Below, one piece after another: positions 2,466-45,008 of a stretch of 64,000 bases of DNA. A program made the translations under genes and the position numbers. The DNA is from a virus (taxonomy: Duplodnaviria; Heunggongvirae; Uroviricota; Caudoviricetes), in IMG/VR virus record IMGVR_UViG_3300033153_011579, one strand, 5' to 3'. How positions within the stretch are numbered: position 1 is the first letter of the stretch; the number at the start of each line of letters is the position of its first letter. Under the pieces are notes generated by a model. It did no database searches, was not told where the DNA came from, and saw nothing but the letters and a program-made list of their open reading frames with translations.

Positions 2466-2508
2466 GGGGCTGTAAGAGAATGCGGATTTTTCTGACACGG
2501 AGGAGTTG

Positions 2509-2712: not shown

Positions 2713-2745
2713 GAGAATGTAGAGTTCTCTGACGAGGAGCGGATT

Positions 2746-3075: not shown

Positions 3076-3088
3076 CACGGAGAAGAAA

Positions 3089-3280
3089 ATGACTATGCTG
3101 ACCGCCTATATCGTTCTGGGGGTGCTCGTGCTGGGAGCTATCGGTACCGGTATCTGGGCCAAGCTCACTGGTGATCCGGTCCCTGTGATTCTTTGCGCCC
3201 TACTGATCGCGGCGGCGGCGGCGCTGTTGAACATCCCGTCGAGCAGGTTCGCCAAGTCCAAGAAGGAGCTCGACCGATGA
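3089..3280 (+). CDS. Small membrane protein (63 aa)
   Basis: Partial cassette CTGACACGGAGAAGAAA-ATG (no inverted repeat); two hydrophobic helices. Confidence 0.6.
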   Translation: MTMLTAYIVLGVLVLGAIGTGIWAKLTGDPVPVILCALLIAAAAALLNIPSSRFAKSKKELDR

Positions 3281-3519
3281 AAAGATTCAAACTTCACCAG
3301 CGAGTCCGCGTGACCGAGGGCGAGCTCGTCGGCCGATTCGGAGCCGTCTGGCGGTGTCGTCGAGCCGATGATGCGGCATGGATCGCGATGGACGAAGACA
3401 TCCCGGAGTCGCTGCGACAGTTTCCAGCAAACGACGCACACGGCCGCGGTAACCACGTGATCCTCTGGCCGGACCAATGCGAGAGGATCACCAAAGCGCC
3501 GAAGCTGAAGGCTGTGTGA
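3277..3519 (+). CDS. Hypothetical protein (80 aa)
   Basis: ATGA overlap with upstream stop; MKRFKLHQRVRVTEGE…. Confidence 0.55.
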   Translation: MKRFKLHQRVRVTEGELVGRFGAVWRCRRADDAAWIAMDEDIPESLRQFPANDAHGRGNHVILWPDQCERITKAPKLKAV

Positions 3520-3851
3520 TGATTCGAAACGGCGACAAACCAGGTGAGCGACGGTTAGCTCTTCCGATCCACTTCCGTGGGCCGACCAGGTGCCTCGGGG
3601 TGGAGGGGACCGTCGATGACGACTACAACGTGGTTCCAGTAGGTCGAGCTCGAGCTTGCGTGCTGAAGGACCTCTGCATCCGCTATCGGGACCGAGAAGA
3701 CTATGGACCGGCGACCCCCTGGTACTCCGAGTGTCCTTACGACTGGCAACGGATGATCTGTACGGAATATCAAACTTCGTGGAGAAATCGAGGGCCGGTG
3801 ATGGACCGTTTGGTAGACATCTACGCCGCGATGCCAGCGAGGGAGAAGTAG
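3519..3851 (+). CDS. Hypothetical protein (110 aa)
   Basis: TGATG overlap with upstream gene; Cys/Trp-containing. Confidence 0.55.
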   Translation: MIRNGDKPGERRLALPIHFRGPTRCLGVEGTVDDDYNVVPVGRARACVLKDLCIRYRDREDYGPATPWYSECPYDWQRMICTEYQTSWRNRGPVMDRLVDIYAAMPAREK

Positions 3852-3853
3852 TC

Positions 3854-4339
3854 TTGGTTGAAATCACACACGACCGCCTCGTGAAAGCTGCAGCTATCTG
3901 GCTCGGCCAGAAGCATCGAGTGGTCTCCACCGAGCTCGTCTGCAGTACCGTCTCAGAGAACGCCGATGCTATCGGATGGGACGGTTACGGCAGGTGCATG
4001 GTCATCGAGTGCAAGGTCAGCCGCTCAGATTTTCTCGCCAACAAGCACAAACCACACGAGATCGTCGGTGACTCCATGGGGAACGAGCGCTGGTTCATGA
4101 CACCACCTGGTCTTGTCGAGCCAAAGGAGTTGCCGCGCAGCCACGGGCTCCTCGAGTACACGCCCAGTGGCCACGGGTCCGGCTACTTCATCCGCAAGGT
4201 CAAGAAAGCTCGGCCGCGGAAGAGGACGGTCGACCGGCTTTGGAACGAGAACCGAACACTGGTCGCCATCGCAGGCCGTGCTCTCGAGGCCGCTTCGAGG
4301 CTCAAGCCGCTCTGGCTCGGTGACGGCGAGGACGAGTAA
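3854..4339 (+). CDS. Putative PD-(D/E)xK-family nuclease-like protein
   Basis: Motif …ADAIGWDGYGRCMVIECKVSRSDF… (D…ExK); probable TTG start at 3854 with SD AGGGAG 8 nt upstream; start uncertain. Confidence 0.4.
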   Translation: MVEITHDRLVKAAAIWLGQKHRVVSTELVCSTVSENADAIGWDGYGRCMVIECKVSRSDFLANKHKPHEIVGDSMGNERWFMTPPGLVEPKELPRSHGLLEYTPSGHGSGYFIRKVKKARPRKRTVDRLWNENRTLVAIAGRALEAASRLKPLWLGDGEDE

Positions 4340-4374
4340 GAGAATGCCGGATTCTATGACACGGAGGAGTGAAG

Positions 4375-4581
4375 ATGGGCGTGCGAACAAAAAAGTTGGC
4401 TGAATGGAAACACGCTGCCATCGAGGCGTTCTACCGACTAGATAGCCTCGTCAATGACAGCGAGTGTGACAACGCAGAGGAACCATACTCCGATTGGCAG
4501 CCGTGCGAGGATGGGTGCAACTACTGTGACGATCGCGAGGCGAGGGACAGGATCGCCCAGCTCATGGCCAAGGACCAATAG
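4375..4581 (+). CDS. Small Cys-rich protein (68 aa)
   Basis: Cassette 4337-4374 upstream; C…C…CNYCD. Confidence 0.65.
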   Translation: MGVRTKKLAEWKHAAIEAFYRLDSLVNDSECDNAEEPYSDWQPCEDGCNYCDDREARDRIAQLMAKDQ

Positions 4582-4620
4582 GCTGTAAGAGAGTGATAGA
4601 TTCTCTGACACGGAGGATAA

Positions 4621-4744
4621 GTGGATCGACGGCAAGTACAAGGAATCCGGCATGGACATCGATGGCAACCTCGACCGCGAAGTTGCGATCTTCCACCTGA
4701 CCGGTAAGGGGCGGGAGGCCGCGAAAAGCGATGAGGAAAAATGA
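4621..4744 (+). pseudogene. Cassette-associated ORF with apparent frame disruption
   Basis: Cassette positions a GTG at 4621, but that frame stops after 28 Arg-rich codons. The +1 frame (…KWIDGKYKESGMDIDGNLDREVAIFHLTGKGREAAKSDEEK*) is protein-like but lacks a start. Confidence 0.3.
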
Positions 4745-4845
4745 AAGAGACAATTGTCGAAATCATGTTTGGGTATCTGTATTTTGCGTTGGGTGGGGGT
4801 GCCGTCGCCTATGTGTGGTGGATGAGTAGCACTTTTGGAGGATGA
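4741..4845 (+). CDS. Small single-TM peptide (34 aa), not in ORF track
   Basis: ATG 4741, MKETIVEIMFGYLYFALGGGAVAYVWWMSSTFGG*; fills an otherwise non-coding gap. Confidence 0.45.
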   Translation: MKETIVEIMFGYLYFALGGGAVAYVWWMSSTFGG

Positions 4846-4846
4846 G

Positions 4847-5050
4847 ATGGACAACCCCGACCTGTACTGCGTGAAGTGCTCGATCGGACTTGGCTTCGGT
4901 CCGCGCGCAACCATCGACAAGAAGGATTACTGCAACGGCTGCGCTGTCTACTTGCTACGCGCCCGCGTGGCCGAACTAGAATCTCAACCGGCGCAGACGA
5001 TGCCTGTCAAACGCACCGTGCGCGAGGCGGTGAACGATGATGTTGATTAG
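4847..5050 (+). CDS. Small Cys-containing protein (67 aa)
   Basis: SD GGAGGA 5 nt upstream; shares a YLLRARVAELE(S/A)Q segment with the 6829..7152 product. Confidence 0.6.
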   Translation: MDNPDLYCVKCSIGLGFGPRATIDKKDYCNGCAVYLLRARVAELESQPAQTMPVKRTVREAVNDDVD

Positions 5051-5339
5051 AGCAATCGGCAGCTCCCTGCTCGCAGTGGCGAGCATGACTATCCGTTGGA
5101 TTGCGGCCGACCTTCTAAGGAGTAAAGGAAAACACATGAGATCAACAACAATAGAAAAGATGTGTCAGGCAGCATCGGTACTCGACCGGGAGAAGTTTGA
5201 TGCTCTCGCCGAAGACCTTTTCGACGAACTGGCGGCTTCTACGACTCGGATGTCAGCAGCTATTCACAATTCGTACTGTCCGAAGTGCCTCGAAAAACAA
5301 CTCATAATCGACGACCTGCGGATCGTCGATCCTGACTGA
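5037..5339 (+). CDS. Hypothetical protein (alternative start 5136)
   Basis: ATGATG overlapping upstream stop; internal ATG 5136 has the better SD (AAAGGAAAA). Confidence 0.4.
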   Translation: MMLIRAIGSSLLAVASMTIRWIAADLLRSKGKHMRSTTIEKMCQAASVLDREKFDALAEDLFDELAASTTRMSAAIHNSYCPKCLEKQLIIDDLRIVDPD

Positions 5340-5418
5340 TGAGGAATGACACGTTCCTTACGAAGAAAACGAATTTTGTAAGAGAACCCCAAGATTCTCT
5401 GACATGGAGGAGATAGTG

Positions 5419-5682
5419 ATGTTCGACGATTGGTCAACTTGGCAACTAGTACTGACCGGTGTCTTCTACTTTTTTCTGTGTATGCTGATCGGATTTCTTG
5501 CCACAGCCGTCCCAGCCTGGGTGCAGCTGTGGAGGGTCAAACAAGAATGTCGGAGTCGGGTAGCTCAAGCCAATCGAAGGTTTGATCTGTCTACTCGTGA
5601 TTTGTGTAAGAGAATGTCGGTTTCTCTGACACGGAGAAGAGAATGGGAACGGAAAAAGATCAAGACAACGTCAGGCACCTGA
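5419..5682 (+). CDS. Small membrane protein (87 aa)
   Basis: Hairpin-B plus cassette-A in tandem upstream (5343-5418); N-terminal TM; ORF reads through the next cassette. Confidence 0.55.
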   Translation: MFDDWSTWQLVLTGVFYFFLCMLIGFLATAVPAWVQLWRVKQECRSRVAQANRRFDLSTRDLCKRMSVSLTRRREWERKKIKTTSGT

Positions 5683-5945
5683 ACCAGGGTGAGCAGGCTT
5701 TTGCCGATCTGATCTCTGTCCTCTCCGACGGGAAGGTCTCCCGCGTCGTGGTGGCCTACTACTGCGAGGAGGACGAGGACGAGGAAGCTGGCTGGTCCTA
5801 CGTCCGGGCCTCGAGACCACCGAGCCCCATCGGTAGCGCCATCGTAGAGGATGTTGGAGCCGCGTCCTTGTTATCCTTGTACGTCAGAGACTGGTACGAC
5901 TCCGCCATGGCGACCGAGACAACCCACGAGGTGCCGCGGAAGTGA
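5643..5945 (+). CDS. Hypothetical acidic protein (100 aa)
   Basis: Cassette 5610-5642 upstream. Confidence 0.6.
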   Translation: MGTEKDQDNVRHLNQGEQAFADLISVLSDGKVSRVVVAYYCEEDEDEEAGWSYVRASRPPSPIGSAIVEDVGAASLLSLYVRDWYDSAMATETTHEVPRK

Positions 5946-5952
5946 GGACAAG

Positions 5953-6282
5953 ATGGCTGTTGAGGAAACAACTGAAGAGCTGGCCCTGGAGGGACGCTCG
6001 GTGGTCATCGAGGTGACCCGCTTTCCCAAGGGCACATCCCGCGGCCGGGTGACATCGCTAGCCGTCGGCATCGAGCCCGACGTGAAGAATGGGGGCGACC
6101 CCGTCGATGTGTCTCCGGCCCTCGTGGTCGACGCGCTGATCTACGCCCTGAAGCTGAACTACGACGCCGAGAGCCAGCACGGGTCAAACGAGACGGCCGA
6201 GGACTACGTCGAGGACGTGGCGCGGATCCTGCTGTCGCAGATCGAGAACGACGAGCCGAGCTCGCTCATGCGGGTTCACTGA
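5953..6282 (+). CDS. Hypothetical acidic protein, paralogue copy 2 (109 aa)
   Basis: SD GAGGA upstream; near-identical to the 2746..3075 product, including the downstream partial cassette. Confidence 0.7.
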   Translation: MAVEETTEELALEGRSVVIEVTRFPKGTSRGRVTSLAVGIEPDVKNGGDPVDVSPALVVDALIYALKLNYDAESQHGSNETAEDYVEDVARILLSQIENDEPSSLMRVH

Positions 6283-6295
6283 CACGGAGGGGAAG

Positions 6296-6493
6296 ATGAG
6301 CCTGTTTTTTACGACGACAATTCGCGAGGATGTTGAGATCGAGGTCGATGTGGAGTGCTCGAGGTGTGGAGCCGCTCTCACGGCAACATCCAGAAGCGAA
6401 CACATCGGCTCCCACGATGAAAACCACCGGCTGGTGATCCACCCGTGCACCACCTGCTACCCGGTTGGCGCGACGGATACCGAGAGCTCGTAA
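6296..6493 (+). CDS. Zn-ribbon small protein (65 aa)
   Basis: Partial cassette CACTGACACGGAGGGGAAG-ATG; CSRCG…CTTC. Confidence 0.6.
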   Translation: MSLFFTTTIREDVEIEVDVECSRCGAALTATSRSEHIGSHDENHRLVIHPCTTCYPVGATDTESS

Positions 6494-6529
6494 GAGAATG
6501 TGCGTTTCTCTGACACGGAGGAGTGGCAA

Positions 6530-6802
6530 ATGAATAAAGAGAAGAAACTCAAGAAGCTCGGGATCCCAGACAAGACCGTAACCTGGGAAGAGTTCAAGGA
6601 ACTCCCGCAAACGCGTGGTGAAGGGATCTCCTTTAAAGCGCAAGGTGTTGGGGACTGGAAGGGTGAGTGGTTCTGGTTTGAGTCGCTAGGGGTGGTTGAG
6701 GTCGACCGCGCCTTGGCCGATGGCGAGGTTATCAGAGGAATGAAGGTCAACGCTGGGAACTGGCACAGGCTTGTTGTCGTTCCTCATAATTTTCCTCGCT
6801 GA
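6530..6802 (+). CDS. Hypothetical protein (90 aa)
   Basis: Cassette 6484-6529 upstream. Confidence 0.6.
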   Translation: MNKEKKLKKLGIPDKTVTWEEFKELPQTRGEGISFKAQGVGDWKGEWFWFESLGVVEVDRALADGEVIRGMKVNAGNWHRLVVVPHNFPR

Positions 6803-6828
6803 CGACCTGTAAGAGAATGGAGCGTTCT

Positions 6829-7152
6829 ATGACAGAGAAAGAGATCAAGCCGAAGATGGTGGATGGCGAGGCGGTGTGTTCTAAAAACTGTCCGCGTTAT
6901 GGGATTGAGCCATGCATGGGGCTTGTTGATTTATCCTCATGCGCCCCCTACTACCGCGCCCGTGTCGCCGAGCTCGAGGCACAGATTTCAAGAATCAGCG
7001 ATACGATCTACCGGGGTGCTCCGCTGTCGTGGGCAAAGGCTGAATTTCACGAGGTCGTGAGCGCCTGGGAGCTGGATCTCTGTATCGCTCTGAACTTATG
7101 CGGCTTCCGCGACGCCCTTGAGCATATTAAGGCGAAGAAAGATTCAGAGTAA
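6829..7152 (+). CDS. Cys-containing protein (107 aa)
   Basis: Degenerate cassette; paralogous segment with the 4847..5050 product. Confidence 0.55.
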   Translation: MTEKEIKPKMVDGEAVCSKNCPRYGIEPCMGLVDLSSCAPYYRARVAELEAQISRISDTIYRGAPLSWAKAEFHEVVSAWELDLCIALNLCGFRDALEHIKAKKDSE

Positions 7153-7185
7153 GAGAATTTTACGTTCTCTGACACGGAGAAAAAG

Positions 7186-7674
7186 ATGAAGACACAAAAA
7201 GAGATTGCAGACCGAGTGAGCAAGTTAGGCAAATCAGACTTCTTCGGGTTCAGGGCAGAGGTACTGATCGGCTACTTGGGTATGGAACTGCTGGTGCCGT
7301 TCTTGAAGGAGGGTGCCCGCAAGCGGTTTGAAGAAGACAAGGAGAATCCCTGGACTGACCCGGTTTTCACAGAAGATGAGGTCAAGAAGGACATGCTCGA
7401 CTATCTCAAATTCGCTTTTGAGAAGTGTTTAGACCACCGTGGTATCTCCGCGAACCGGAGCATCGAGAAACTCGTTGAGTGGGCGTGGATTCTGGGGAGG
7501 GACGACCTGGTGGAGTTCGCAGGAGAGGCAGGCAACTTCCGAAATTACGGTGCGCCGGTTCTAAAGAAATTCGCTGAGGGGTTCGAGATAGAGCTGCCCG
7601 AGGACGAGCGGTTTCACCGAATGGCTCGTGGAGAGCGCTGCGGAGCGGACTACGCTTGCGGTTGTAACGAGTGA
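7186..7674 (+). CDS. Hypothetical protein (162 aa)
   Basis: Cassette 7149-7185 upstream. Confidence 0.7.
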   Translation: MKTQKEIADRVSKLGKSDFFGFRAEVLIGYLGMELLVPFLKEGARKRFEEDKENPWTDPVFTEDEVKKDMLDYLKFAFEKCLDHRGISANRSIEKLVEWAWILGRDDLVEFAGEAGNFRNYGAPVLKKFAEGFEIELPEDERFHRMARGERCGADYACGCNE

Positions 7675-7712
7675 GCTTGTAAGAGAATTTTGCATTCTCT
7701 GACACGGAGAAG

Positions 7713-8054
7713 ATGATGAATCAGGATAGAGTAATCGAAATAGTGAGGGGCTGGCGGTGTCCTCACTGCTTCATGGAGTACGAGAACATTAAGGAAGCCC
7801 AGGAGTGCGATCAGCAGTGCTCCGCCTTCCTCGACGATGCTCCCCCAACTTGTGACTGGTGTGATCAGCCGGGAGAACACGAGAGTCCAGTCGAGGGGCT
7901 ACACTTTCTCATCAACTGTGGGCACTACATGTACGGTATGCATGAGGACGATAGTGGGGACGCTGAGAACGACCGCTACGAGACCGTCCAGCGGTTACGC
8001 GGTGTCGAGGCCCTTCCATGGGAGTACCCAGACGTCGGAGTGAAAGATGAATAA
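7713..8054 (+). CDS. Cys/His-rich putative Zn-binding protein (113 aa)
   Basis: Cassette upstream; CPHC…C…C…CDWCD…. Confidence 0.65.
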   Translation: MMNQDRVIEIVRGWRCPHCFMEYENIKEAQECDQQCSAFLDDAPPTCDWCDQPGEHESPVEGLHFLINCGHYMYGMHEDDSGDAENDRYETVQRLRGVEALPWEYPDVGVKDE

Positions 8055-8376
8055 GCCAGAAGAAGACTTTGGTCTCGTGGTCGAACTTCACGGCCCGCGC
8101 GTGATTCATCGGTGCCGAGACTGTGATCACAGGTTCGGGTCTCCGCCCAGGCATTGGCAATGTAAGGCGCACCCGCGTCACCTGGAAAACCCAGAATATG
8201 CTCTTCATTTGGTCGGAAGAGAGTTGGATGAAAGCGAGCTCACAGACGGATATGGGTTTTGTGACCTCATCCGTGTGGCGACACAGCCGACGTGTCCTGA
8301 GTTCGAGCCGCGTAGACCGGCGAGTGCTGGATTTGTGTCTTGGTGGAGAAGGCTGTTGGCGAAGTTCGGTCTGTAA
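8047..8376 (+). CDS. Zn-finger protein (109 aa)
   Basis: Overlaps upstream gene by 8 nt; CRDCDH…C…. Confidence 0.6.
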   Translation: MNKPEEDFGLVVELHGPRVIHRCRDCDHRFGSPPRHWQCKAHPRHLENPEYALHLVGRELDESELTDGYGFCDLIRVATQPTCPEFEPRRPASAGFVSWWRRLLAKFGL

Positions 8377-8410
8377 GAGAATTTATGATTCTCTGACACG
8401 AGATGGGTAG

Positions 8411-8650
8411 ATGAAGAAGCGAGCAAAACGAGTCGAAAGATTCCATGTGAGGTGTCCCTTTTGTGGCGATCTCGTGGACATCATGACGTCGCTCTCTTGG
8501 TGCTCTGGGTGTTTTGTCGAGTGGTACCGTACACGAGCTTGCAATTACATTTTTGATACCGAGAGGAAGACCGAGAGGTTCGTGTGGGCCAAGGCGGTGC
8601 AGAAGTCCGGAGGCATGCGGATCGCCTCAGCCAACGAGGACGATGAGTAA
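8411..8650 (+). CDS. Zn-ribbon protein (79 aa)
   Basis: Cassette 8376-8410 upstream; CPFCG…CSGC. Confidence 0.65.
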   Translation: MKKRAKRVERFHVRCPFCGDLVDIMTSLSWCSGCFVEWYRTRACNYIFDTERKTERFVWAKAVQKSGGMRIASANEDDE

Positions 8651-8683
8651 GAGAATTCAGGATTCTCTGACACGGAGGATGAG

Positions 8684-9052
8684 ATGTGGAACAGAGTAAT
8701 ATTCGCGGGCTGGATGGTAGTCGCGTTGCTGATCGGGGTCCTATTCGGCGCAGGCCTCTACCAAACCTGGCCGGCTAATCCCGACGTGATCGAGGACACC
8801 GAACCCTCAAGCGGTCGGCCCCTAGAGATCGAGATCTGCTCAGACGCGGCTGACCACTGCAACGATTCGGAGGACTGCGTAGAGGACGTATTCTCGCGGT
8901 GTCTTTACCACCTCGGGACGCCAACAATGTCCGACTGTCACGAAGAGTGCGCAGGGATCATGAAGGAGCTAAGCGACAAGAACGATGCGTGCTGGGATAG
9001 CTTCATGAACTGCCAAGACGTACTCGACGAGGTGTGGCGAGAAGCGCTGTAA
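8684..9052 (+). CDS. Membrane-anchored Cys-rich protein (122 aa)
   Basis: Cassette upstream; N-terminal TM then Cys-rich domain; paralogue of the 32459..32836 (-) product. Confidence 0.65.
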   Translation: MWNRVIFAGWMVVALLIGVLFGAGLYQTWPANPDVIEDTEPSSGRPLEIEICSDAADHCNDSEDCVEDVFSRCLYHLGTPTMSDCHEECAGIMKELSDKNDACWDSFMNCQDVLDEVWREAL

Positions 9053-9091
9053 GAGAATTGAGAATTCTCTGACACGGAAAAGAGGAACTCA

Positions 9092-9349
9092 GTGACTGAC
9101 GACATCATCCAGATTCGAACCGCGCCAGGATGCCGCAAGGAAAAGCCGATGCGGTATCTGGTGTTCCGCATCGAGTGCTACTACCCAGCGGGTGGGTGGG
9201 ACGACCTCGAAGCGACGACCAACGACAAGGAAACCGCAATCGAACTGGCCAAGAAAATTGAGGCTGAATTCAGCAGCGGCGAGGTGATTGACCTCGATAC
9301 TGGGACTCGCCTTTACCCGCCGTGGCGCGGTGACGACGAGGACGAGTAA
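9092..9349 (+). CDS. Hypothetical acidic protein (85 aa, GTG start)
   Basis: Cassette upstream with SD AGAGGA 5 nt before GTG. Confidence 0.55.
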   Translation: MTDDIIQIRTAPGCRKEKPMRYLVFRIECYYPAGGWDDLEATTNDKETAIELAKKIEAEFSSGEVIDLDTGTRLYPPWRGDDEDE

Positions 9350-9382
9350 GAGAATTGGCGATTCTCTGACACGGAGAGGAAG

Positions 9383-9634
9383 ATGACCAGGCTCGAACAG
9401 TACCAAAAACTCCACGAGATCTTCCTCGTGAACAGGTTTTCGGACGTGTTGACCGAGGCTGAAGAAGACGACCTGCTCTACGCCCTGGACGCCGTTTGGT
9501 GGCAGATGACGAGTGCGGAGCACGCCGAAGCGGAGAAGGACACCTGGATGTGGAATCGGGTGCTGCGGGGATGGTTCGCGCACATCGATCCCGCTGGCGG
9601 AACGAACAACCCAGTGATGAAGTGGAGCTTGTAA
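9383..9634 (+). CDS. Hypothetical protein (83 aa)
   Basis: Cassette upstream. Confidence 0.65.
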   Translation: MTRLEQYQKLHEIFLVNRFSDVLTEAEEDDLLYALDAVWWQMTSAEHAEAEKDTWMWNRVLRGWFAHIDPAGGTNNPVMKWSL

Positions 9635-9669
9635 GAGAACTGACAATTCCCTTACACGAGGAGGAGAGG

Positions 9670-9945
9670 ATGAGGCGGAATCGCAGAACAATGGTGGCCA
9701 CAAGCACGATAGGTTCGTGGATGAGCCGAGTGTATAGACTGGAAGCTGAGAACGAAAAGCTTCGTACTGATCTTCTCTTCGCCAAAGCAAAGATTAAGGC
9801 GATCCGGGTACGTATTGAGATGGTCGATGATGGGGAGAGCTGTTACCAGTCACACGACGCGGTACCAGACATTCTCAACATTCTGCGTGGGGGGACGCTT
9901 TGGACAGGAAGTCCACAGTACGCCGCCGTCAAAAAACGCCTGTAA
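9670..9945 (+). CDS. Hypothetical coiled-coil protein (91 aa)
   Basis: Cassette variant (ATTCCCTTACACGAGGAGGAGAGG-ATG); start relocated to ATG 9670. Confidence 0.6.
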   Translation: MRRNRRTMVATSTIGSWMSRVYRLEAENEKLRTDLLFAKAKIKAIRVRIEMVDDGESCYQSHDAVPDILNILRGGTLWTGSPQYAAVKKRL

Positions 9946-9982
9946 GAGAACCGACTGACTCTATTACACGAGGAGATAATAG

Positions 9983-10465
9983 ATGCACGGGCTAGGAAGA
10001 AGAGGAAACCGCCGGAAGAAACGCCTGAAGAAACATCGAGGCCGTACTCCTGCTAGAGTTTCGGCATCCAGCAAGGTCTACAACACTACCTCCAGGACCG
10101 TCGTCAAGACTGCTGCGCCCAGCACCGTCGTCACGTTCGACGACGTAGCTGATCTGGCCGAGGCGACCCTCGACGAGGAGAACGTGACCGCGCTGTTCAT
10201 GCGGTACGACAATAACATCAGGCCAACGCTCTTCTACACTGCCTACGCGGAAACTCCGTCTGGGCGCGTCTTCCTCCAGGCAGTCCATGTACTGTCGAAA
10301 GATGAGATCTACGAGAACCCAAAACACCCGCTGCCCTGTTACAGGGACGGCAAGGACATGAGGTGCCCCTATCCGCAGGAGCACATCATCGACAGGGCCG
10401 TTGAGTACTGGGAGTCCCGAGGGATTGACGTCTACGAGGGCACGGTGGAGATGAAGATTTTGTAA
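9983..10465 (+). CDS. Hypothetical protein (160 aa)
   Basis: Cassette upstream. Confidence 0.65.
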   Translation: MHGLGRRGNRRKKRLKKHRGRTPARVSASSKVYNTTSRTVVKTAAPSTVVTFDDVADLAEATLDEENVTALFMRYDNNIRPTLFYTAYAETPSGRVFLQAVHVLSKDEIYENPKHPLPCYRDGKDMRCPYPQEHIIDRAVEYWESRGIDVYEGTVEMKIL

Positions 10466-10499
10466 GAGAACCTTCTATTCCCTGACATGGAGGATTGAG

Positions 10500-10733
10500 A
10501 TGAAAACGGGAGAACGCGAACTGTTCAAGGTAACCGGACGACCTGGTCGCCGTATCTGGCGCAAACAAGCCGGAGCGCGAGGGTACCGACCCATCTGGAC
10601 CTCCGACTACGTTGAGGAGGTTGACGGGAAGTTCTTCTGCACGATTCGGAGTGAGTCCGAGAACGACCTGCCGATGGAGCAGCACGATAACCTTCAAGAC
10701 GCGCTCGAGTGGTTGATGAGGGATCGGACGTAA
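10500..10733 (+). CDS. Hypothetical protein (77 aa)
   Basis: Cassette upstream. Confidence 0.65.
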   Translation: MKTGERELFKVTGRPGRRIWRKQAGARGYRPIWTSDYVEEVDGKFFCTIRSESENDLPMEQHDNLQDALEWLMRDRT

Positions 10734-10766
10734 GAGAATCAACGATTCTCTGACATGGAGGACAGG

Positions 10767-10961
10767 ATGAAACGCACGCTGTTGACCGAGATCGACTTTG
10801 ACCGTCAGAGCTGTCGGGTCATCGAGGCGGAGATCATCAAGTGCAACACCTGTAAGGGTAGCGGTTGGAAAGAGGTTTCGACGCACCGCGGAAACTACAG
10901 ACGCCGCTGTGCTCAGTGCCACGGCACAGGCAAGGTGCTGGTGGGACCGAAGGTTCGATGA
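10767..10961 (+). CDS. Zn-ribbon protein (64 aa)
   Basis: Cassette upstream; CNTCKGSG…CAQCHGTG. Confidence 0.65.
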   Translation: MKRTLLTEIDFDRQSCRVIEAEIIKCNTCKGSGWKEVSTHRGNYRRRCAQCHGTGKVLVGPKVR

Positions 10962-11002
10962 CTGTAAGAGAACAGACGATTCTCTGACACGAGGAGAGAA
11001 GG

Positions 11003-11254
11003 ATGAATTTCAGTAACGAGCAAATGACAGAGTGGCTGTCGGAGGTTCCGGAAGCTACCAGCGTACGCTGCGTGGCTATCCCTCCGTACATCAGTAAAGA
11101 GATGAAGGAGCGGCCAGTGATTCCGTGGGATCTGCTTACCCGAGAAGTCAACAACAAGATAGGTGATGGTGACCGCGTACTCGGGATTCGTGCTGCGGGG
11201 GCCAACTCCTACGGCAATTACTGGATCATCATTTGGGTTGGCAACAAAGAGTGA
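11003..11254 (+). CDS. Hypothetical protein (83 aa)
   Basis: Cassette upstream. Confidence 0.65.
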   Translation: MNFSNEQMTEWLSEVPEATSVRCVAIPPYISKEMKERPVIPWDLLTREVNNKIGDGDRVLGIRAAGANSYGNYWIIIWVGNKE

Positions 11255-11293
11255 GCTTGTAAGAGAAACTAATATTCTCTGACGGAGGAGAGC

Positions 11294-11527
11294 ATGGACA
11301 ACGATACCAAAAGACTGTGTGGCAACTGCTTCTGGTTTGATCAAGAGCTCTGTCGACGACTGCCACCGCGCATGATTGACCAGGTAGATCTTTATGAAAA
11401 AGATAGTGAGTTCAACACCTGGAATGCCAGTTACGCAGACGACTACACCTCTTGGCCAGTTGTAGAAGAGAAAGCCTGGTGCGGAGAATGGCGATCGAAG
11501 GAAGACGGCTGGCCCGTCGGTAAGTAA
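11294..11527 (+). CDS. Hypothetical protein (77 aa)
   Basis: Cassette upstream. Confidence 0.65.
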   Translation: MDNDTKRLCGNCFWFDQELCRRLPPRMIDQVDLYEKDSEFNTWNASYADDYTSWPVVEEKAWCGEWRSKEDGWPVGK

Positions 11528-11559
11528 GAGAATCAAACATTCTCTGACACGAGGAGAAG

Positions 11560-11673
11560 ATGATGGAAATTCTAATTTTTTGGCTGTGCTTTTGTGGACT
11601 CGGAGCCGTTGGTATATTGGTAGCGTCCTTGGTGATCCTCAGTGAGGAACGTCAACGAAACGGTCGCCAGTAA
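11560..11673 (+). CDS. Small single-TM peptide (37 aa), not in ORF track
   Basis: Cassette 11526-11559 upstream; MMEILIFWLCFCGLGAVGILVASLVILSEERQRNGRQ*. Confidence 0.55.
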   Translation: MMEILIFWLCFCGLGAVGILVASLVILSEERQRNGRQ

Positions 11674-11714
11674 GAGAATCAGCACGTTCCCTGAAAGGAA
11701 GATTGGAGAACAAA

Positions 11715-11927
11715 ATGTCGAAGAACACGGTCACGCAGCACGTTTTGGTTGATTCCCATGTTGAGTGCTTCCCTGAGGAATTCCTCGAAGCACTTCTCGC
11801 AGTTTGTCCGGCTCCCTTGGCACCGGACAGTCTTAAACAACTCCGTGACATAGGGAGAGTCCAGTTGAGCCTCTGGCTTTCCCCGGAGGACTTGAAGCGC
11901 TGGACAGGTAAAGCGCCAGGGGAATGA
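11715..11927 (+). CDS. Hypothetical protein (70 aa)
   Basis: Hybrid A/B motif upstream (GTAAGAGAATCAGCACGTTCCCTG). Confidence 0.55.
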   Translation: MSKNTVTQHVLVDSHVECFPEEFLEALLAVCPAPLAPDSLKQLRDIGRVQLSLWLSPEDLKRWTGKAPGE

Positions 11928-11976
11928 CACTTTCCCTGTGCCTACACAACAACCGCCTAGTGGGGCAAGGAGTAGG

Positions 11977-12330
11977 ATGATGACAGAGCATACATTGACC
12001 GTTGGTGGAAGCGAGGTCGTGGTTTCGAGTAACCCTGTTTCAAGGGACCTTGTCGGCTCGGACCGCAGCTTCGGAGATGAACGCGCGCACCCATGTCCGA
12101 ACTGTAGCAAAAATAGTCTGCGCTACCATTTCCTCGACTACAGGCCTGCGCTGTCGTGGGCCTGCGTCGAGTGTGGCTATGCTGAGCACCCGCCGATTGA
12201 AAAGTTGGTTGCCGATGGGTACTCCCCGCAGAAGGTAGAGGAGGATTGGTCGACCTGCATTTACCCAAAGGAGTGGATGCTTTACTCCCCGCTTGAGCGG
12301 TTAGCGTCACCACAAACACGAAAGGATTAG
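11977..12330 (+). CDS. Zn-ribbon protein (117 aa)
   Basis: Hairpin-B at 11929, SD AAGGAG; CPNC…CVECG. Confidence 0.55.
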   Translation: MMTEHTLTVGGSEVVVSSNPVSRDLVGSDRSFGDERAHPCPNCSKNSLRYHFLDYRPALSWACVECGYAEHPPIEKLVADGYSPQKVEEDWSTCIYPKEWMLYSPLERLASPQTRKD

Positions 12331-12334
12331 AACG

Positions 12335-12685
12335 ATGGGTTTGTTTTCACCACCAGGCCAAGCTCCAGATCTCCGAGAGGCGAAAGATGTTAGAGTTATC
12401 GTCACCCTATGCAAGGACGAAGAACCAGGTGATGGATATGTCCGAACACAGATAACCGCTCTCGATGAACTCGAGGAGGGTGAAGAGGGTTTAAATATTA
12501 ACGGAGACAACGTCTTTGAGGCACTGGTTTACGCGCTGTACCACCACTTTGTAAACGAGCACGAGGTTGGGCATTCTTGTTGCCTTACTCATTTTATCGA
12601 AGAGATCACAGACCTACTGGAGCGTGTCAACGAGACTGACGGAAACGAAAAGGTCAGTCGGAGTTCTGAAGAACACACACATTAA
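12335..12685 (+). CDS. Hypothetical acidic protein (116 aa)
   Basis: SD AAAGGA upstream. Confidence 0.55.
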   Translation: MGLFSPPGQAPDLREAKDVRVIVTLCKDEEPGDGYVRTQITALDELEEGEEGLNINGDNVFEALVYALYHHFVNEHEVGHSCCLTHFIEEITDLLERVNETDGNEKVSRSSEEHTH

Positions 12686-12794
12686 TAAGGGTTATTGCAT
12701 CAGCTGCGGACCGTCGACCCTGTATGAGGAATGACACGTTCCCTGGTGGGAGAACGTCGAACTGGAGTGAGAGGAGTTTGAATGTTTAAAGCAC

Positions 12795-12943
12795 GTCGAG
12801 TTCTCCGAGCGCGCGGTGAGTGTGGACGGGGGCCTGCGTTGGGTTTTTGTGACGAATTCTCCTTAGCAGGCCTTCTACGTGGAGTGCTTCAACCATTCCA
12901 TCGACCTACTCGACCCACTCACCGCGCGCTCGGAGAACTCGAC
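12795..12943. repeat. 28-bp perfect inverted repeat with a 93-bp spacer in a non-coding gap
   Basis: GTCGAGTTCTCCGAGCGCGCGGTGAGTG (12795-12822) and its exact reverse complement at 12916-12943; an inner IR GGCCTGC/GCAGGCC lies in the loop. Confidence 0.85.
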
Positions 12944-12971
12944 GGCACGCAGTCGGGGGAAGGAGAAAAGA

Positions 12972-13181
12972 ATGCGAAAATATCGATTTCAGCACGATGA
13001 GGATGGTGACGTGCTGTGGGTCTACATCGCCGGTAACTCCGCGTACCCAGGGGAGCACCGCTTCGATCCACCAGAAGTTTTGGAGGCCTACATCGGTTAC
13101 CTTCGAGCATGTAAAGGTGATCAACTTGATTCTGATGTAGTTATCGCCTGGAAGGACAGTGCTTGGGGTCCGGATGTCTGA
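12972..13181 (+). CDS. Hypothetical protein (69 aa)
   Basis: SD GGAAGGAGAAAAG upstream; the region 12686-12971 upstream is non-coding and structured. Confidence 0.5.
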   Translation: MRKYRFQHDEDGDVLWVYIAGNSAYPGEHRFDPPEVLEAYIGYLRACKGDQLDSDVVIAWKDSAWGPDV

Positions 13182-13232
13182 TGACACGTTCCCTGGTACC
13201 CCTATGCCCAAACACTAGGCAGGAGGAATGAG

Positions 13233-13412
13233 ATGTCTGAAAAGAAAGCTGTGGTTCAACGTGTTGTCATCCACGAACTCTTGGATGCAGGTGTGGTGGC
13301 GATCGAAGGACGTGATCTTGTGTTCGAGTCCCCCTGGGACAAGGGCTCAGAGGCGATGATTGCTTTGATGAAGAAAGGCCTCGTCAAAGACGTGGTCCGG
13401 GACAGGGAATGA
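13233..13412 (+). CDS. Hypothetical protein (59 aa), not in ORF track
   Basis: Hairpin-B at 13188, SD AGGAGGAATGAG-ATG; MSEKKAVVQRVVIHELLDAGVVAIEGRDLVFESPWDKGSEAMIALMKKGLVKDVVRDRE*. Confidence 0.5.
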   Translation: MSEKKAVVQRVVIHELLDAGVVAIEGRDLVFESPWDKGSEAMIALMKKGLVKDVVRDRE

Positions 13413-13437
13413 CACGTCCCCTGAAAGGAGAAGCCCG

Positions 13438-13713
13438 ATGGGTCAAACAACATCCGACAATCCAGGTGGAGTGAAGTCGCTCTTCGAAGATAACAACTCA
13501 CAAAAAGCTACTGCCTCCACGCTCGCCGGATACCTCGTCGAAGATGGTGCTTGGATGGTATTGCCAGATGGGGACCGCGAGATCACTATTGTGCGGCACA
13601 GAGACTATGGCACGATCATGTATCTCATTGATGGTCCAGGCGAGGATATAAGAAGCGGCGTAGTAAAAACGGTGCGAGAACTCGCTGACGCCATCGCCGT
13701 TGGTGGGGAATGA
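13438..13713 (+). CDS. Hypothetical protein (91 aa)
   Basis: Hairpin-B 13408 plus SD AAAGGAGAAG upstream. Confidence 0.6.
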   Translation: MGQTTSDNPGGVKSLFEDNNSQKATASTLAGYLVEDGAWMVLPDGDREITIVRHRDYGTIMYLIDGPGEDIRSGVVKTVRELADAIAVGGE

Positions 13714-13774
13714 CACGTTCCCTAGGAACTTGAGCTTGTAAGAGAATCTCGCATTCTCTGACACGGAGGAAAAA

Positions 13775-13954
13775 ATGGACGAACACATGAGATATTTAGG
13801 CTGCCTGAAACTACTTGAGGATTGCTCACCTTACGTACCGGAAGAGATTCGTGAGGGTATCGAGATGGCTCACGACGATGCTGTAGAGGCCAGCAACGGG
13901 ACCTTGCGGGCTCGCAGTGTGCTCGATCGACGAGAGATCGAGGTGGTGACGTAA
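13775..13954 (+). CDS. Hypothetical protein (59 aa), not in ORF track
   Basis: Tandem hairpin-B plus cassette-A upstream (13711-13774). Confidence 0.5.
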   Translation: MDEHMRYLGCLKLLEDCSPYVPEEIREGIEMAHDDAVEASNGTLRARSVLDRREIEVVT

Positions 13955-13985
13955 GAGAATCCGCACGTTCTCTTACACGGAGGAA

Positions 13986-14189
13986 ATGATGGGTAAAGAT
14001 GTGAGGACCAAGACATTCGCTATGATGTTTCGGGAGCGCTGCGTGATCATGCGGGATGCTTTCGACCGCCGTGACGTAGAGGGCTTTGCTACTGCTCTCA
14101 AGGACGTTGAGCGCCTGATGCGAGAGCACGCCGAGGGGTGCGGCTGCTCACAATGCCGAGAGACGCTGAAGATCATGAATGAGGTGTAA
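13986..14189 (+). CDS. Cys-containing protein (67 aa)
   Basis: Cassette upstream; CGCSQC. Confidence 0.6.
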   Translation: MMGKDVRTKTFAMMFRERCVIMRDAFDRRDVEGFATALKDVERLMREHAEGCGCSQCRETLKIMNEV

Positions 14190-14223
14190 GAGAATACACA
14201 CGTCCTTTAACACGGAGGAAACG

Positions 14224-14460
14224 ATGAGTACTGTTCTGGATAATGACCAAAAATTGATGGTAATTCTGGCGGTTGTGGTGGCACTCTTCCTGTTAATTTT
14301 GGCTGGTGGGAAGCTTATTGGTGATGTTTTGTCACCCCCAACACCCCAAGAGGACTGTATGAACCAGGCCCAGCAGCTGGACAGCGAGGAGTCTGAGAAA
14401 GAAGCCTACTACAAGTGTCTTGAGTCTTTAGGGCTGGAAGATCCTAAAAAGGCTTTGTAA
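14224..14460 (+). CDS. Small membrane protein (78 aa)
   Basis: Cassette upstream; TM LMVILAVVVALFLLILAGG. Confidence 0.65.
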   Translation: MSTVLDNDQKLMVILAVVVALFLLILAGGKLIGDVLSPPTPQEDCMNQAQQLDSEESEKEAYYKCLESLGLEDPKKAL

Positions 14461-44929: not shown

Positions 44930-45008
44930 CCGAGCGATCCTACCTATTCACCACTCCCCGAGCCGACCGGCTCGGGGAGTTCCGAGGTGGTAGGATCAGG
45001 AGGCTGGT

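What the first reader, a model, noticed from the sequence alone, without database searches (positions are those of the whole stretch)
12686..12971. Non-coding island with a 28-bp perfect long-range inverted repeat
- A 286-bp gap in an otherwise gene-dense array contains a motif-B hairpin.
- It also holds two exact 28-nt inverted arms separated by 93 nt, with a nested 7-bp IR in the loop.
- Such a long perfect stem is unlikely by chance. It could be a structured ncRNA, a cruciform or secondary origin, a recombination site (attP-like; though int is 12 kb away) or a strong attenuator.
Basis: seen in the sequence. Interest (0 to 1): 0.65.

Follow-up and report, generated by a model that had tools for sequence, protein, structure and literature searches.

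The report
Hairpin-forming insertion splitting a phage gene
A perfect 29-bp inverted repeat in a phage early-gene array is real and far beyond chance, and it looks most like a single small transposon-like insertion that split a tiny gene rather than a purpose-built regulatory RNA, origin or attachment site.

Summary
The arms are 12794-12822 and 12916-12944: 29 nt (not 28), 100% complementary, 93 nt apart. In 100 shuffles the longest such repeat averaged 13 nt (maximum 16).

The window is an orphan bacteriophage from JGI metagenomes. Its early genes are separated by stereotyped hairpin cassettes: about 25 copies of motif A and 5 of motif B.

Against that regular pattern the 286-bp "island" breaks down into five parts:
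- a probably frameshift-truncated 3' end of the upstream gene;
- a normal motif-B cassette with a Shine-Dalgarno (SD) ribosome-binding site and ATG at 12782;
- four codons;
- a 151-bp unit bounded by the perfect repeats and flanked by a 3-bp direct repeat (GCA/GCA);
- 27 nt that read in frame into the gene at 12972.

Deleting the unit (151 or 154 nt) fuses ATG 12782 in frame to that gene. Best reading (about 0.45): a MITE-like foldback insertion. In the early transcript it would form a 29-bp dsRNA stem, a likely RNase III target.

The main weakness is that no second copy, parent IS or empty site was found in any searchable collection, so MITE membership fails the copy-number test. No terminator, promoter, origin, attP or Rfam features were found. 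The only relatives are at least 99.95% identical, so covariation cannot be tested. Interest is modest.

The parts
12335..12685 (+). Upstream early gene (116 aa, no homologues). It ends at TAA just after an (AC)4 run (12673-12680). It is probably truncated by a frameshift.
   Evidence: Called by JGI on the identical contig. Adding one AC extends it to the TGA inside motif B at 12732-12734, giving the C-terminus ...HTHINKGYCISCGPSTLYEE with a CxxC motif. In the other four motif-B copies the upstream gene stops at the motif's TGA or at the codon directly before it.
12726..12781 (+). Canonical motif-B intercistronic cassette: GAGGAATGACACGTTCCCTGG hairpin, about 30 nt, then SD GAGGAG (12771-12776).
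   Evidence: The 17-nt core is identical to the copy at 13181-13197. Motif B has 5 copies against 0.18 expected. The distance from motif to ATG is 50 nt here, against 51 nt at 13182 and 52-55 nt at 11925.
12782..12793 (+). ATG plus three codons (MFKA). Inferred to be the original start of the downstream gene, now cut off by the insertion.
   Evidence: SD 5 nt upstream, at the canonical distance from motif B. As it stands the ORF from this ATG (12782-13000, 72 aa, pI 10.7) runs out of frame into the next gene and has no Pfam match or homologue.
12791..12793 (.). Left copy of the 3-bp direct repeat GCA (putative target-site duplication).
   Evidence: Read directly from the sequence. The chance of a 3-nt match is 1/64.
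12794..12822 (.). Left arm of the 29-nt perfect inverted repeat (putative terminal inverted repeat).
12823..12915 (+). 93-nt interior. It contains hairpin 12828-12837/12866-12875 (10 bp, 2 G-U), a T5 run at 12844-12848, and hairpin 12879-12886/12894-12901 (8 bp, 2 G-U).
   Evidence: Fold of the + strand: -32.6 kcal/mol, z = -2.3. Fold of the - strand: z = -0.2. T-runs listed.
12916..12944 (.). Right arm of the 29-nt perfect inverted repeat.
12945..12947 (.). Right copy of the direct repeat GCA.
12945..12971 (+). 27 nt in frame with the downstream gene (ARSRGKEKR). Inferred to be former N-terminal coding sequence. It now also carries the SD AGGAG (12961-12965) for ATG 12972.
   Evidence: In-silico excision of 151 or 154 nt gives an uninterrupted 82- or 81-aa ORF from ATG 12782 to the stop at 13181.
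12972..13181 (+). Downstream small early gene (69 aa, pI 4.5), still expressible from its own SD+ATG.
   Evidence: Translation. No homologue in 5.8 billion clusters or 1.84 billion representatives, apart from one short repeat-motif match.

Best explanation
The 'non-coding island' is not a designed intergenic region. It is the scar of two lesions in a very regular array of small phage early genes.

**The main lesion.** A 151-bp foldback unit (12794-12944) is bounded by perfect 29-bp terminal inverted repeats and flanked by a 3-bp duplication (GCA). It sits four codons after the start (ATG 12782) of a small gene. Its architecture is that of a miniature inverted-repeat transposable element (MITE): a short, non-coding DNA mobilised in trans by a transposase that makes a staggered cut, which is filled in to give the duplication. 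The insertion separates the original start from the body of the gene. The body can still be translated from an internal SD+ATG at 12972 as a 69-aa protein.

**The second lesion.** The neighbouring upstream gene seems to have lost its last 17 codons through a slip in an (AC)4 run. That loss creates the first 47 nt of the gap.

**Consequence at the RNA level.** All genes here are on the + strand and closely packed, so the unit is presumably transcribed within the early polycistronic mRNA. There its arms would form a 29-bp perfect dsRNA helix. That length is a substrate for bacterial RNase III, as shown for Neisseria Correia elements. Cleavage would uncouple the upstream and downstream halves of the message.

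**Shown:** the repeat, its boundaries, the flanking GCA repeat, the cassette architecture, restoration of the frame on excision, and the predicted fold.

**Inferred:** that it arrived by transposition, that it is transcribed, and that it is cleaved.
For: 1. The 29/29 repeat is far beyond chance, and the boundary is sharp.
2. GCA lies directly outside both arms.
3. The early array is extremely regular. Motif A (gTAAGAGAAT-N6-ATTCTCTGACACGGAGGA-N-ATG) occurs about 25 times on the + strand between 2474 and 14459. Motif B occurs 5 times. Motif B at 12732 is followed at the canonical 50 nt by SD+ATG (12782), so a gene is expected to start there.
4. The ORF from that ATG enters the left arm after 4 codons. 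As it stands it is a 72-aa, pI 10.7, homologue-free product that overlaps the next gene out of frame.
5. Deleting exactly the repeat-bounded unit, with or without one GCA, gives an open in-frame fusion to the 12972 gene. Deleting a single 29-nt arm would not (161 nt is not a multiple of 3).
6. The size, repeat length, lack of coding capacity and long-hairpin transcript all match bacterial MITEs as reviewed in PMC2229807. MITEs do occur in phage genomes, though rarely (PMC11602168).
7. No terminator-, promoter-, origin- or Rfam-type feature offers a competing function.
8. The arms are 69% G+C and the whole unit 60%, against 53-55% in the flanks. This is only weakly suggestive of foreign origin.
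Against: - **No second copy was found anywhere.** The searches covered:
  - the window and a further 15 kb of the phage;
  - IMG/VR;
  - 185,579 species-representative genomes, where 50 single-site chance hits to a 20-mer all lacked a second arm;
  - JGI metagenome contigs, with 5 single-site chance hits;
  - plasmids and phages by blastn;
  - translations of the unit against 5.8 billion protein clusters.
- **No transposase** was found among 105 ORFs.
- **No empty site** could be found, because the phage has no diverged relatives.
- **Limits of those searches:** the collection scans need exact 19-23-mers (two exact 14-mers). The metagenome collection evidently does not include the source samples.
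- **Individually weak arguments:** a 3-bp flanking repeat (1/64) and an in-frame excision (1/3).
- **Atypical features:** the unit is G+C-rich and lacks the TA ends typical of many bacterial MITEs.
- **Hint of RNA-level selection:** the interior folds better than shuffles on the + strand only (z = -2.3).
- **Own start signal:** the strong SD+ATG at 12972 allows that gene always to have started there.
Confidence: 0.45

Rival explanations
1. It is a selected cis-acting RNA element of the early polycistronic transcript. The 29-bp helix is an RNase III processing site, like the T7 early-mRNA sites or the stems that flank rRNA. Cleavage would separate or stabilise mRNA segments, or release the roughly 95-nt three-hairpin interior as a small RNA.
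For: - Very stable fold on the sense strand (-104.8 kcal/mol, z = -8).
- The interior forms two hairpins that depend on four G-U pairs and fold better than shuffles only on the + strand (z = -2.3 against -0.2).
- The site lies between two ribosome-binding sites in a one-directional gene array that already uses hairpin cassettes between genes.
Against: - No Rfam family, only sub-threshold generic miRNA-hairpin models.
- No relatives, so no covariation.
- A flawless 29-bp stem with no G-U pair or mismatch is what a young DNA repeat looks like, not an old RNA helix.
- It does not explain the flanking GCA repeat, the stranded canonical SD+ATG four codons upstream, or the restoration of frame on excision.
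- A z of -2.3 was reached by 5 of 200 shuffles, so it is weak.
- This rival is compatible with secondary co-option of an insertion.
Confidence: 0.22
2. It arose locally by inverted duplication or template switching during replication, including 'correction' of a pre-existing imperfect palindrome. On this view it was never mobile and has no dedicated function.
For: - It is a singleton in every collection searched.
- No transposase in the phage.
- Perfect arms imply a recent DNA-level event.
- The adjacent gene also carries a slippage-type lesion, which suggests a decaying, weakly selected region.
Against: - Removing one 29-nt arm does not restore the frame, whereas removing the whole 151-nt unit does.
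- The direct GCA repeat at both ends is what staggered-cut insertion predicts, not template switching.
- No donor sequence for the arm or interior exists elsewhere in about 79 kb of the phage. The best match is a 22/25 chance-level hit at 28855-28879.
Confidence: 0.12
3. It is an inverton: a 93-bp segment flipped by a site-specific recombinase acting on the 29-bp repeats, switching expression of the downstream early genes. For example, the T5 run at 12844-12848 would face the transcript in only one orientation.
For: - Perfect repeats of 10-40 bp flanking a short segment upstream of a gene are the defining geometry of invertons (general knowledge).
- Recombination keeps such repeats identical.
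- A T5 run lies on the + strand inside the segment, and T5+ runs are three-fold rarer than A5+ runs on this strand (8 against 24 in 17 kb).
- The phage encodes a tyrosine recombinase.
Against: - No invertase or second recombinase nearby, only the weak integrase match 12 kb away.
- No promoter-like or terminator-like site on either strand of the segment.
- Both available contigs have the same orientation.
- Inversion cannot fuse ATG 12782 to the downstream gene (same length, wrong frame) and yields no better gene model.
- 93 bp is very short for synapsis.
Confidence: 0.07
4. It is a DNA-level replication or integration site: a secondary origin or cruciform, or an attP-like recombination site.
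For: Only the existence of a long dyad symmetry.
Against: - 60% G+C, with no A+T-rich unwinding stretch, iterons or other direct repeats.
- The 93-nt spacer disfavours cruciform extrusion.
- It is 12 kb from int and has no tRNA-like core.
- The arm sequence is not found in any bacterial genome in a way that would suggest an attB.
Confidence: 0.04

Closest known systems
Bacterial MITEs in general, and the Correia/NEMIS elements of Neisseria in particular
   Same: - About 150 bp, like the 155-bp Correia form.
- Terminal inverted repeats of about 24-26 bp there, 29 bp here.
- Short flanking duplication and no coding capacity.
- Co-transcribed with neighbouring genes into a long hairpin. For Correia elements that hairpin is bound and cut by RNase III and alters expression of adjacent genes (PMC2229807, PMC2649163).
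   Different: - Correia elements are present in tens to hundreds of copies and duplicate TA. They show no sequence similarity to this unit, which is a singleton everywhere searched, duplicates GCA and is 60% G+C.
- No parent IS or transposase is known here.
MITEs in viral genomes (vMITEs; Nadal-Molero et al. 2024, PMC11602168)
   Same: A short element bounded by terminal inverted repeats and a target-site duplication, inside a phage genome. Such elements are documented but rare: 671 viral sequences, 0.01% of those surveyed.
   Different: vMITEs were defined by MITE-Tracker, which to my knowledge requires several copies, or by at least 95% identity to a cellular MITE. This unit meets neither criterion in the data available to me.
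RNase III processing hairpins in phage early polycistronic mRNAs (T7 R0.3-R1.3, lambda sib)
   Same: An intercistronic hairpin with two or more helical turns inside an early operon. The predicted outcome is mRNA cleavage and uncoupling (my own knowledge of the T7 and lambda literature).
   Different: The T7 and lambda sites are compact, imperfect hairpins with small loops, and they are conserved among relatives. Here the helix is perfect, encloses 93 nt and shows the hallmarks of an insertion.
Invertons (invertible promoters and intragenic inversions)
   Same: Perfect short inverted repeats flanking a segment of about 100 bp just upstream of, or at the 5' end of, a gene.
   Different: No nearby invertase, no promoter in the segment, one orientation only in two assemblies, and no alternative reading frame created.

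Membership tests
MITE (miniature inverted-repeat transposable element) | Small (about 50-800 bp, typically under 200 bp in bacteria) with no transposase or other convincing ORF | tested here: met
   The unit is 151 bp. ORFs crossing it have no Pfam match and no homologue in any frame.
MITE (miniature inverted-repeat transposable element) | Terminal inverted repeats | tested here: met
   29 nt, 100% complementary, with a sharp boundary.
MITE (miniature inverted-repeat transposable element) | Target-site duplication directly flanking the repeats | tested here: inconclusive
   GCA at 12791-12793 and 12945-12947. A 3-nt match has a 1/64 chance expectation. It is not the TA typical of many bacterial MITEs (PMC2229807).
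MITE (miniature inverted-repeat transposable element) | Several copies with different flanks in one or more genomes | tested here: not met
   Singleton in the window and a further 15 kb of the phage, IMG/VR, GTDB species genomes, JGI metagenome contigs, plasmids and phages and protein space. The collection scans needed exact 19-23-mers (two exact 14-mers), and the source samples and host genome may not be in these collections.
MITE (miniature inverted-repeat transposable element) | Cognate autonomous IS or transposase with matching ends | tested here: not met
   No transposase family among 105 ORFs of the window. No locus carried the arm next to a second arm. ISfinder could not be consulted.
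MITE (miniature inverted-repeat transposable element) | An empty site in a related genome or allele | not testable with these tools
   The only other contigs of this phage are at least 99.95% identical and carry the unit. The flanking proteins have no relatives.
Correia/NEMIS element | TA duplication, conserved 24-26-bp Correia repeat sequence, Neisseria host | tested here: not met
   The flanks are GCA, and blastn found no similarity in phage or plasmid collections. The resemblance is in architecture only.
RNase III processing site | About 20 bp or more of uninterrupted dsRNA in a transcribed region | tested here: met
   A predicted 29-bp perfect helix in the sense-strand RNA. Transcription is inferred from the one-directional gene array.
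RNase III processing site | Staggered cleavage in vivo or in vitro | not testable with these tools
   Needs RNA end-mapping or an enzyme assay.
Intrinsic terminator or attenuator | G+C-rich hairpin followed directly by a T-run | tested here: not met
   No terminator-like site on either strand within 12686-12971. The sequence after the right arm is GCACGCAGTCGGGGG.
Inverton | Inverted repeats flanking a short invertible segment | tested here: met
Inverton | Both orientations present in the population; recombinase; promoter or coding switch in the segment | tested here: inconclusive
   Two contigs show the same orientation. There is no invertase, only a distant integrase. There is no promoter-like site, and inversion creates no gene fusion. 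Reads were not available.
attP | Next to int; core shared with a host attB (often a tRNA 3' end) | tested here: not met
   int is at 82-969, 12 kb away. No tRNA-like sequence. Arm matches in genomes are single chance hits in unrelated taxa.
Replication origin | A+T-rich unwinding element with iterons or initiator boxes | tested here: not met
   G+C is 0.60 for the unit and 0.55 for its interior. No direct-repeat family in the region.
Any Rfam RNA family | Score at or above the family's gathering threshold | tested here: not met
   No hit at the gathering threshold. The best sub-threshold hit is mir-2576 at 29 bits against a threshold of 83.
Retron msr-msd | a1/a2 inverted repeats enclosing the ncRNA, directly upstream of a reverse transcriptase | tested here: not met
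   No RVT family among 105 ORFs. The downstream genes encode 59-91 aa.

The most novel reading that the evidence does not exclude
The insertion might be tolerated because ribosomes hop over it. The duplicated GCA is exactly codon 4 of the ORF that starts at 12782. The second GCA (12945-12947) is in frame with the downstream gene. The 29-bp helix places the two GCA codons side by side at its base. A peptidyl-tRNA(Ala) taking off at the first GCA and landing on the second would bypass 151 nt and make the intact 81-aa protein. That would be a bacterial-phage analogue of T4 gene 60 bypassing and of the mobile 'byp' elements of yeast mitochondria, over a gap three times longer than any known. A milder version is that the unit has been co-opted as an RNase III-excised small RNA.
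Probability: 0.03. Interest if true: 0.85.

Novelty: new member of a known kind. Interest (0 to 1): 0.3.

Why it matters
**If the insertion reading is right**
- This is a clean, very recent example of a MITE-like element landing inside a phage early gene. A 2024 survey found such elements in only about 0.01% of viral sequences (PMC11602168).
- The element would then be a molecular tag. Finding its siblings in a bacterial genome from the same samples would name the host of a phage that otherwise has almost no database relatives.
- It would also show how a perfect 29-bp dsRNA helix can be dropped into a polycistronic early mRNA and tolerated.

**If the RNA reading is right instead**
- It would be an unusually long processing stem enclosing a small structured RNA in a novel phage.

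**Either way**
- The feature is a single-locus curiosity rather than a new class of system.
- The roughly 30 stereotyped hairpin cassettes around it are arguably the more interesting biology of this region.

Tried and rejected
**Readings considered and dropped**
- *Haloarchaeal virus.* I first assumed this (acidic local proteins, a TTTAAA 'TATA box', an ORB-type origin). I dropped it because the proteome is not halophile-like (median pI 5.7, D+E 14% against K+R 12.4%). Adjacent contigs of the same phage also encode a sigma-70-family protein, an SLT lytic transglycosylase and a response regulator, so the host is a bacterium.
- *Real gene in the gap.* ORF 12782-13000 (72 aa) has pI 10.7, no Pfam match and no homologue, and overlaps the next gene out of frame. 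The in-frame upstream extension of the 12972 gene (GTG 12879, 100 aa) gained no support from an exhaustive HMMER search. The only hit is a 21-residue repeat motif matching residues 4-24 of the 69-aa protein.
- *CRISPR repeat or mini-array.* The arm is 29 nt, but the copies are inverted, and no genome holds the arm in tandem.
- *Retron.* No reverse transcriptase.
- *Group I intron.* 151 nt is too small, there is no U at the 5' splice site, and there is no Rfam hit.
- *Link to the phage's own hairpin motifs or a third arm copy.* The arms share GGAGAAC/GTTCTCC with motifs A and B, and partial 'third copies' lie at 12704-12717 and 12750-12763. The words involved are common in the window (CGTCGA 76 times, GGAGAAC 11 times), so this is at chance level.
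- *22/25 match to the arm at 28855-28879.* It lies inside a coding region with E = 0.13, so I treat it as chance.

**Searches for relatives that found nothing**
- Flanking proteins in IMG/VR.
- Motif A as a search key in IMG/VR, which gave 3 unrelated contigs.
- megablast, blastn and tblastn against phages and plasmids.
- A 319-aa neighbouring protein against 5.8 billion clusters, which returned only itself.
- The JGI sample numbers in the literature.
Full report
**1. The observation**

The inverted repeat is real. Its arms are 12794-12822 (CGTCGAGTTCTCCGAGCGCGCGGTGAGTG) and 12916-12944.

The repeat ends sharply, because A12793 faces G12945. Allowing 3 mismatches, the arm occurs nowhere else in the window. 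No other inverted repeat of comparable quality exists within 600 nt anywhere in the 64 kb.

In 100 first-order shuffles of the window, the longest perfect inverted repeat with arms no more than 700 nt apart averaged 13.1 nt (sd 1.05, maximum 16), against 29 observed. As RNA, the region folds at -104.8 kcal/mol (z = -8.0) on the + strand and z = -8.2 on the - strand.

The nested 7-bp repeat (12831-12837 / 12866-12872) and the motif-B hairpin (about 12726-12760) are also present. The same sequence appears base for base in a second JGI contig (Ga0366832_1008060, 18.8 kb). That contig differs from the window at 8 positions in 16.4 kb, so an assembly artefact is unlikely.

**2. What the window is**

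The window has no tRNA and no Rfam family. It has no nucleotide match in the phage collection, and a tblastn of its 605-aa protein there found nothing.

It belongs to an 82,351-bp JGI metagenome contig. Near-identical pieces occur in samples 3300033141, 3300033143 and 3300033148.

I first took it for a haloarchaeal virus because the local proteins are acidic. That was wrong:
- The proteome is ordinary (median pI 5.7).
- Contigs overlapping the window encode a sigma-70-family protein, an SLT lytic transglycosylase, a response-regulator domain, thioredoxin and DUF5131.

It is therefore a bacteriophage, or prophage, of an unidentified bacterium of about 60% G+C. It carries a weak tyrosine-integrase match at 82-969. 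Pfam found no transposase, invertase, reverse transcriptase or RNase III among 105 ORFs.

**3. The surroundings are extremely regular, and that is the key**

From about 2.4 to 14.5 kb, all genes are small and on the + strand.

Nearly every junction carries the same cassette, motif A: gTAAGAGAAT-N6-ATTCTCTGACACGGAGGA-N5-8-ATG. It comprises the stop codon of the upstream gene, a 7-bp hairpin, an SD ribosome-binding site and the next start. A strict pattern finds 12 copies where none is expected. The core finds about 25 intergenic copies, all on the + strand.

Between 11.9 and 13.8 kb, a variant called motif B (GGGAATGACACGTTCCCTG) takes over. It has 5 copies against 0.18 expected. At four of these copies the upstream gene stops at the motif's TGA or at the codon directly before it. 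At three of the five copies, including the one at 12732, the next SD+ATG follows 50-55 nt later; at 13410 it follows at 28 nt, and at 13711 at 64 nt with a motif-A cassette in between.

**4. Anatomy of the 'island' against that pattern**

*(a) 12686-12734.* The upstream gene (12335-12685) stops at TAA just after an (AC)4 run at 12673-12680. This is 47 nt before the TGA of motif B, where it 'should' stop. Adding one AC extends it exactly to that TGA. The extension adds ...INKGYCISCGPSTLYEE, a CxxC motif that complements an HSCC...H motif earlier in the protein. This looks like a slippage frameshift.

*(b) 12726-12781.* This is a normal motif-B cassette. Its 17-nt core is identical to the copy at 13181. 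It ends with SD GAGGAG and ATG 12782 at the canonical 50 nt.

*(c) 12782-12793.* These are four codons (MFKA).

*(d) 12794-12944.* This is the 151-bp repeat-bounded unit. GCA lies directly outside each arm (12791-12793 and 12945-12947).

*(e) 12945-12971.* These 27 nt are open and in frame with the 69-aa gene that starts at 12972, which has its own SD (AGGAG, 12961-12965).

Left as it is, the ORF from ATG 12782 is a 72-aa, pI 10.7 product. It has no Pfam match and no homologue, and it ends 28 nt inside the next gene in another frame.

Deleting the unit gives one uninterrupted ORF, whether 151 nt or 154 nt (with one GCA) is removed: MFKA(A)RSRGKEKRMRKYRFQHDEDGDV.... Removing only one arm would not restore the frame.

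With these two simple edits the 286-bp gap disappears, and the locus looks like every other junction in the array.

**5. Best explanation**

The unit has the architecture of a MITE: small, non-coding, with terminal inverted repeats, a short flanking duplication and a long-hairpin transcript (features as reviewed in PMC2229807). MITEs are documented in phage genomes but are rare (PMC11602168).

I therefore read it as a recent insertion that split a small early gene four codons after its start. 'Recent' follows from the flawless arms. The body of the gene remains translatable from ATG 12972.

The region is almost certainly transcribed as part of a rightward polycistronic early message. This is inferred from gene orientation and packing. 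The arms would then form a 29-bp perfect dsRNA helix, a plausible RNase III substrate, as shown experimentally for Neisseria Correia elements (PMC2649163, PMC2229807). Transposition, transcription and cleavage are all inferred, not shown.

**6. What speaks against it**

I could find no second copy, no parent IS and no empty site. The searches were:
- a 23-mer of the arm, a two-ended 14+14-mer pattern and a 19-mer of the interior in IMG/VR, with 0 hits;
- the outer 20-mer in 185,579 species-representative genomes, giving 50 single-site hits in unrelated high-G+C taxa, none with a second arm or extension beyond 24 nt;
- the outer 22-mer in JGI metagenome contigs, giving 5 single-site hits in unrelated contigs, none with a second arm;
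- blastn against plasmids and phages, with nothing below E of about 0.04;
- a six-frame translation of the unit against 5.8 billion protein clusters, with nothing;
- another 15 kb of the same phage, with nothing.

The copy-number criterion for MITE membership is therefore not met in the accessible data.

These searches have limits. The collection scans require exact words. The metagenome collection did not even return the source contig. The phage is an orphan whose host may be unsampled.

The supporting arguments are individually modest: a 3-nt flanking repeat (1/64) and an in-frame excision (1/3). The stranded canonical SD+ATG is the strongest of them. I put the insertion reading at about 0.45.

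**7. Rivals**

*A selected RNA element (about 0.22).* This would be an RNase III processing stem, perhaps releasing the 93-nt interior. It is supported by the interior folding better than shuffles on the + strand only (z = -2.3 against -0.2, owing to four G-U pairs). It does not explain the GCA repeat, the stranded start or the frame restoration. A mismatch-free 29-bp stem is atypical of an old RNA helix. Co-option of an insertion would reconcile the two readings.

*Local inverted duplication or template switching (about 0.12).* This fits the singleton status. It does not fit the flanking direct repeat or the whole-unit frame restoration.

*An inverton (about 0.07).* This fits the geometry and would keep the arms identical. 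However:
- there is no nearby recombinase;
- there is no promoter- or terminator-like site on either strand;
- both contigs show the same orientation;
- inversion creates no useful reading frame.

*Origin, cruciform or attP (about 0.04).* These lack every defining feature that could be tested.

About 0.1 remains for something not considered.

**8. Comparison with known systems, and novelty**

The unit works like, and looks like, a Correia-type MITE. It shares no sequence, target or copy number with that family, and it fails the multi-copy test. I file it as 'MITE-like, membership unproven'. No Rfam family applies. Retron, CRISPR-repeat and group I intron readings were rejected.

On novelty it would be a new, so far singleton, member of a known kind.

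The most novel reading not excluded is translational bypassing across the hairpin. The duplicated GCA is exactly codon 4 of the upstream ORF. Its twin is in frame with the downstream gene and sits beside it at the base of the helix. I give this about 3%, for three reasons:
- no stop codon follows the take-off codon;
- the nascent peptide would be only 4 residues long;
- the gap is three times longer than any known bypass.

**9. Verdict**

The feature is real and statistically exceptional. The most economical account is an insertion scar in a decaying pair of accessory early genes, not a dedicated origin, attachment site or attenuator. Interest is modest (0.3).

The decisive data are the raw reads and unbinned contigs of the source metagenomes. 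They could show empty-site or inverted alleles and sibling copies. RNA end-mapping is the other decisive experiment.

Noticed in passing
window 2474-14459, + strand (for example 7151, 8649, 9348, 13740, 14459): About 25 copies of a stereotyped intercistronic cassette, gTAAGAGAAT-N6-ATTCTCTGACACGGAGGA-N5-8-ATG. It comprises the upstream stop codon, a 7-bp hairpin and an SD site, and lies between almost every pair of small early genes, always on the + strand. A strict pattern gives 12 copies where 0 are expected. It could be an operator ('stoperator'-like), an RNA-binding or processing site, or a recombination cassette for gene shuffling like the T4 PeSL elements. It may be more interesting than the finding itself.
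   Followed up: partly
window 11925, 12732, 13182, 13410, 13711 (+ strand): Motif B (GGGAATGACACGTTCCCTG) replaces motif A in a sub-module of the array (11.9-13.8 kb). It is a short hairpin; at four of the five copies the upstream gene stops at the TGA in its loop or at the codon just before it. This suggests a block acquired from a related phage that uses a variant cassette.
   Followed up: partly
window 12673-12734: Gene 12335-12685 ends right after an (AC)4 run. One extra AC would extend it to the TGA inside motif B and add a CxxC-containing tail (INKGYCISCGPSTLYEE). This is probably a slippage frameshift (a pseudogene or a polymorphism) and is shared by both available contigs.
   Followed up: partly
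window 11560-11673 (+ strand): An uncalled 37-codon ORF, MMEILIFWLCFCGLGAVGILVASLVILSEERQRNGRQ, flanked by motif-A cassettes. It is a likely small membrane peptide that fills what looks like another gap in the JGI gene calls.
   Followed up: no
window 2746-3092 and 5953-6299: Two 347-bp segments are 91.6% identical, a paralogous small-gene duplication within the early array. This is consistent with cassette-mediated shuffling.
   Followed up: no
window 26259-27368 (- strand): A PurA/PurZ-like adenylosuccinate synthetase (PHROG 1211, E = 1e-51; Pfam Adenylsucc_synt, E = 1e-39; 33-35% identical to homologues in Rhizobium and Mycobacterium phages). No MazG- or HD-type partner appeared in the Pfam scan, so a 2-aminoadenine genome is not indicated, but it was not examined further.
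   Followed up: no
window 61005-61025, 61399-61419 and 48045-48072: CTAG-centred perfect palindromes (GGCCCACTAGTGGGCC followed by a T-run, or preceded by an A-run). They look like bidirectional terminators in the late/structural region.
   Followed up: no
window 44925-45008: A 41-nt imperfect (73%) palindrome with a 2-nt centre, exactly filling the gap between genes 44219-44929 and 45009-45911.
   Followed up: no
L062 3433-4107 (5.4 kb upstream of the window start, same phage): The phage encodes its own sigma-70-family (r2/r4) factor a few genes upstream of the integrase. This was the clue that the host is bacterial.
   Followed up: no
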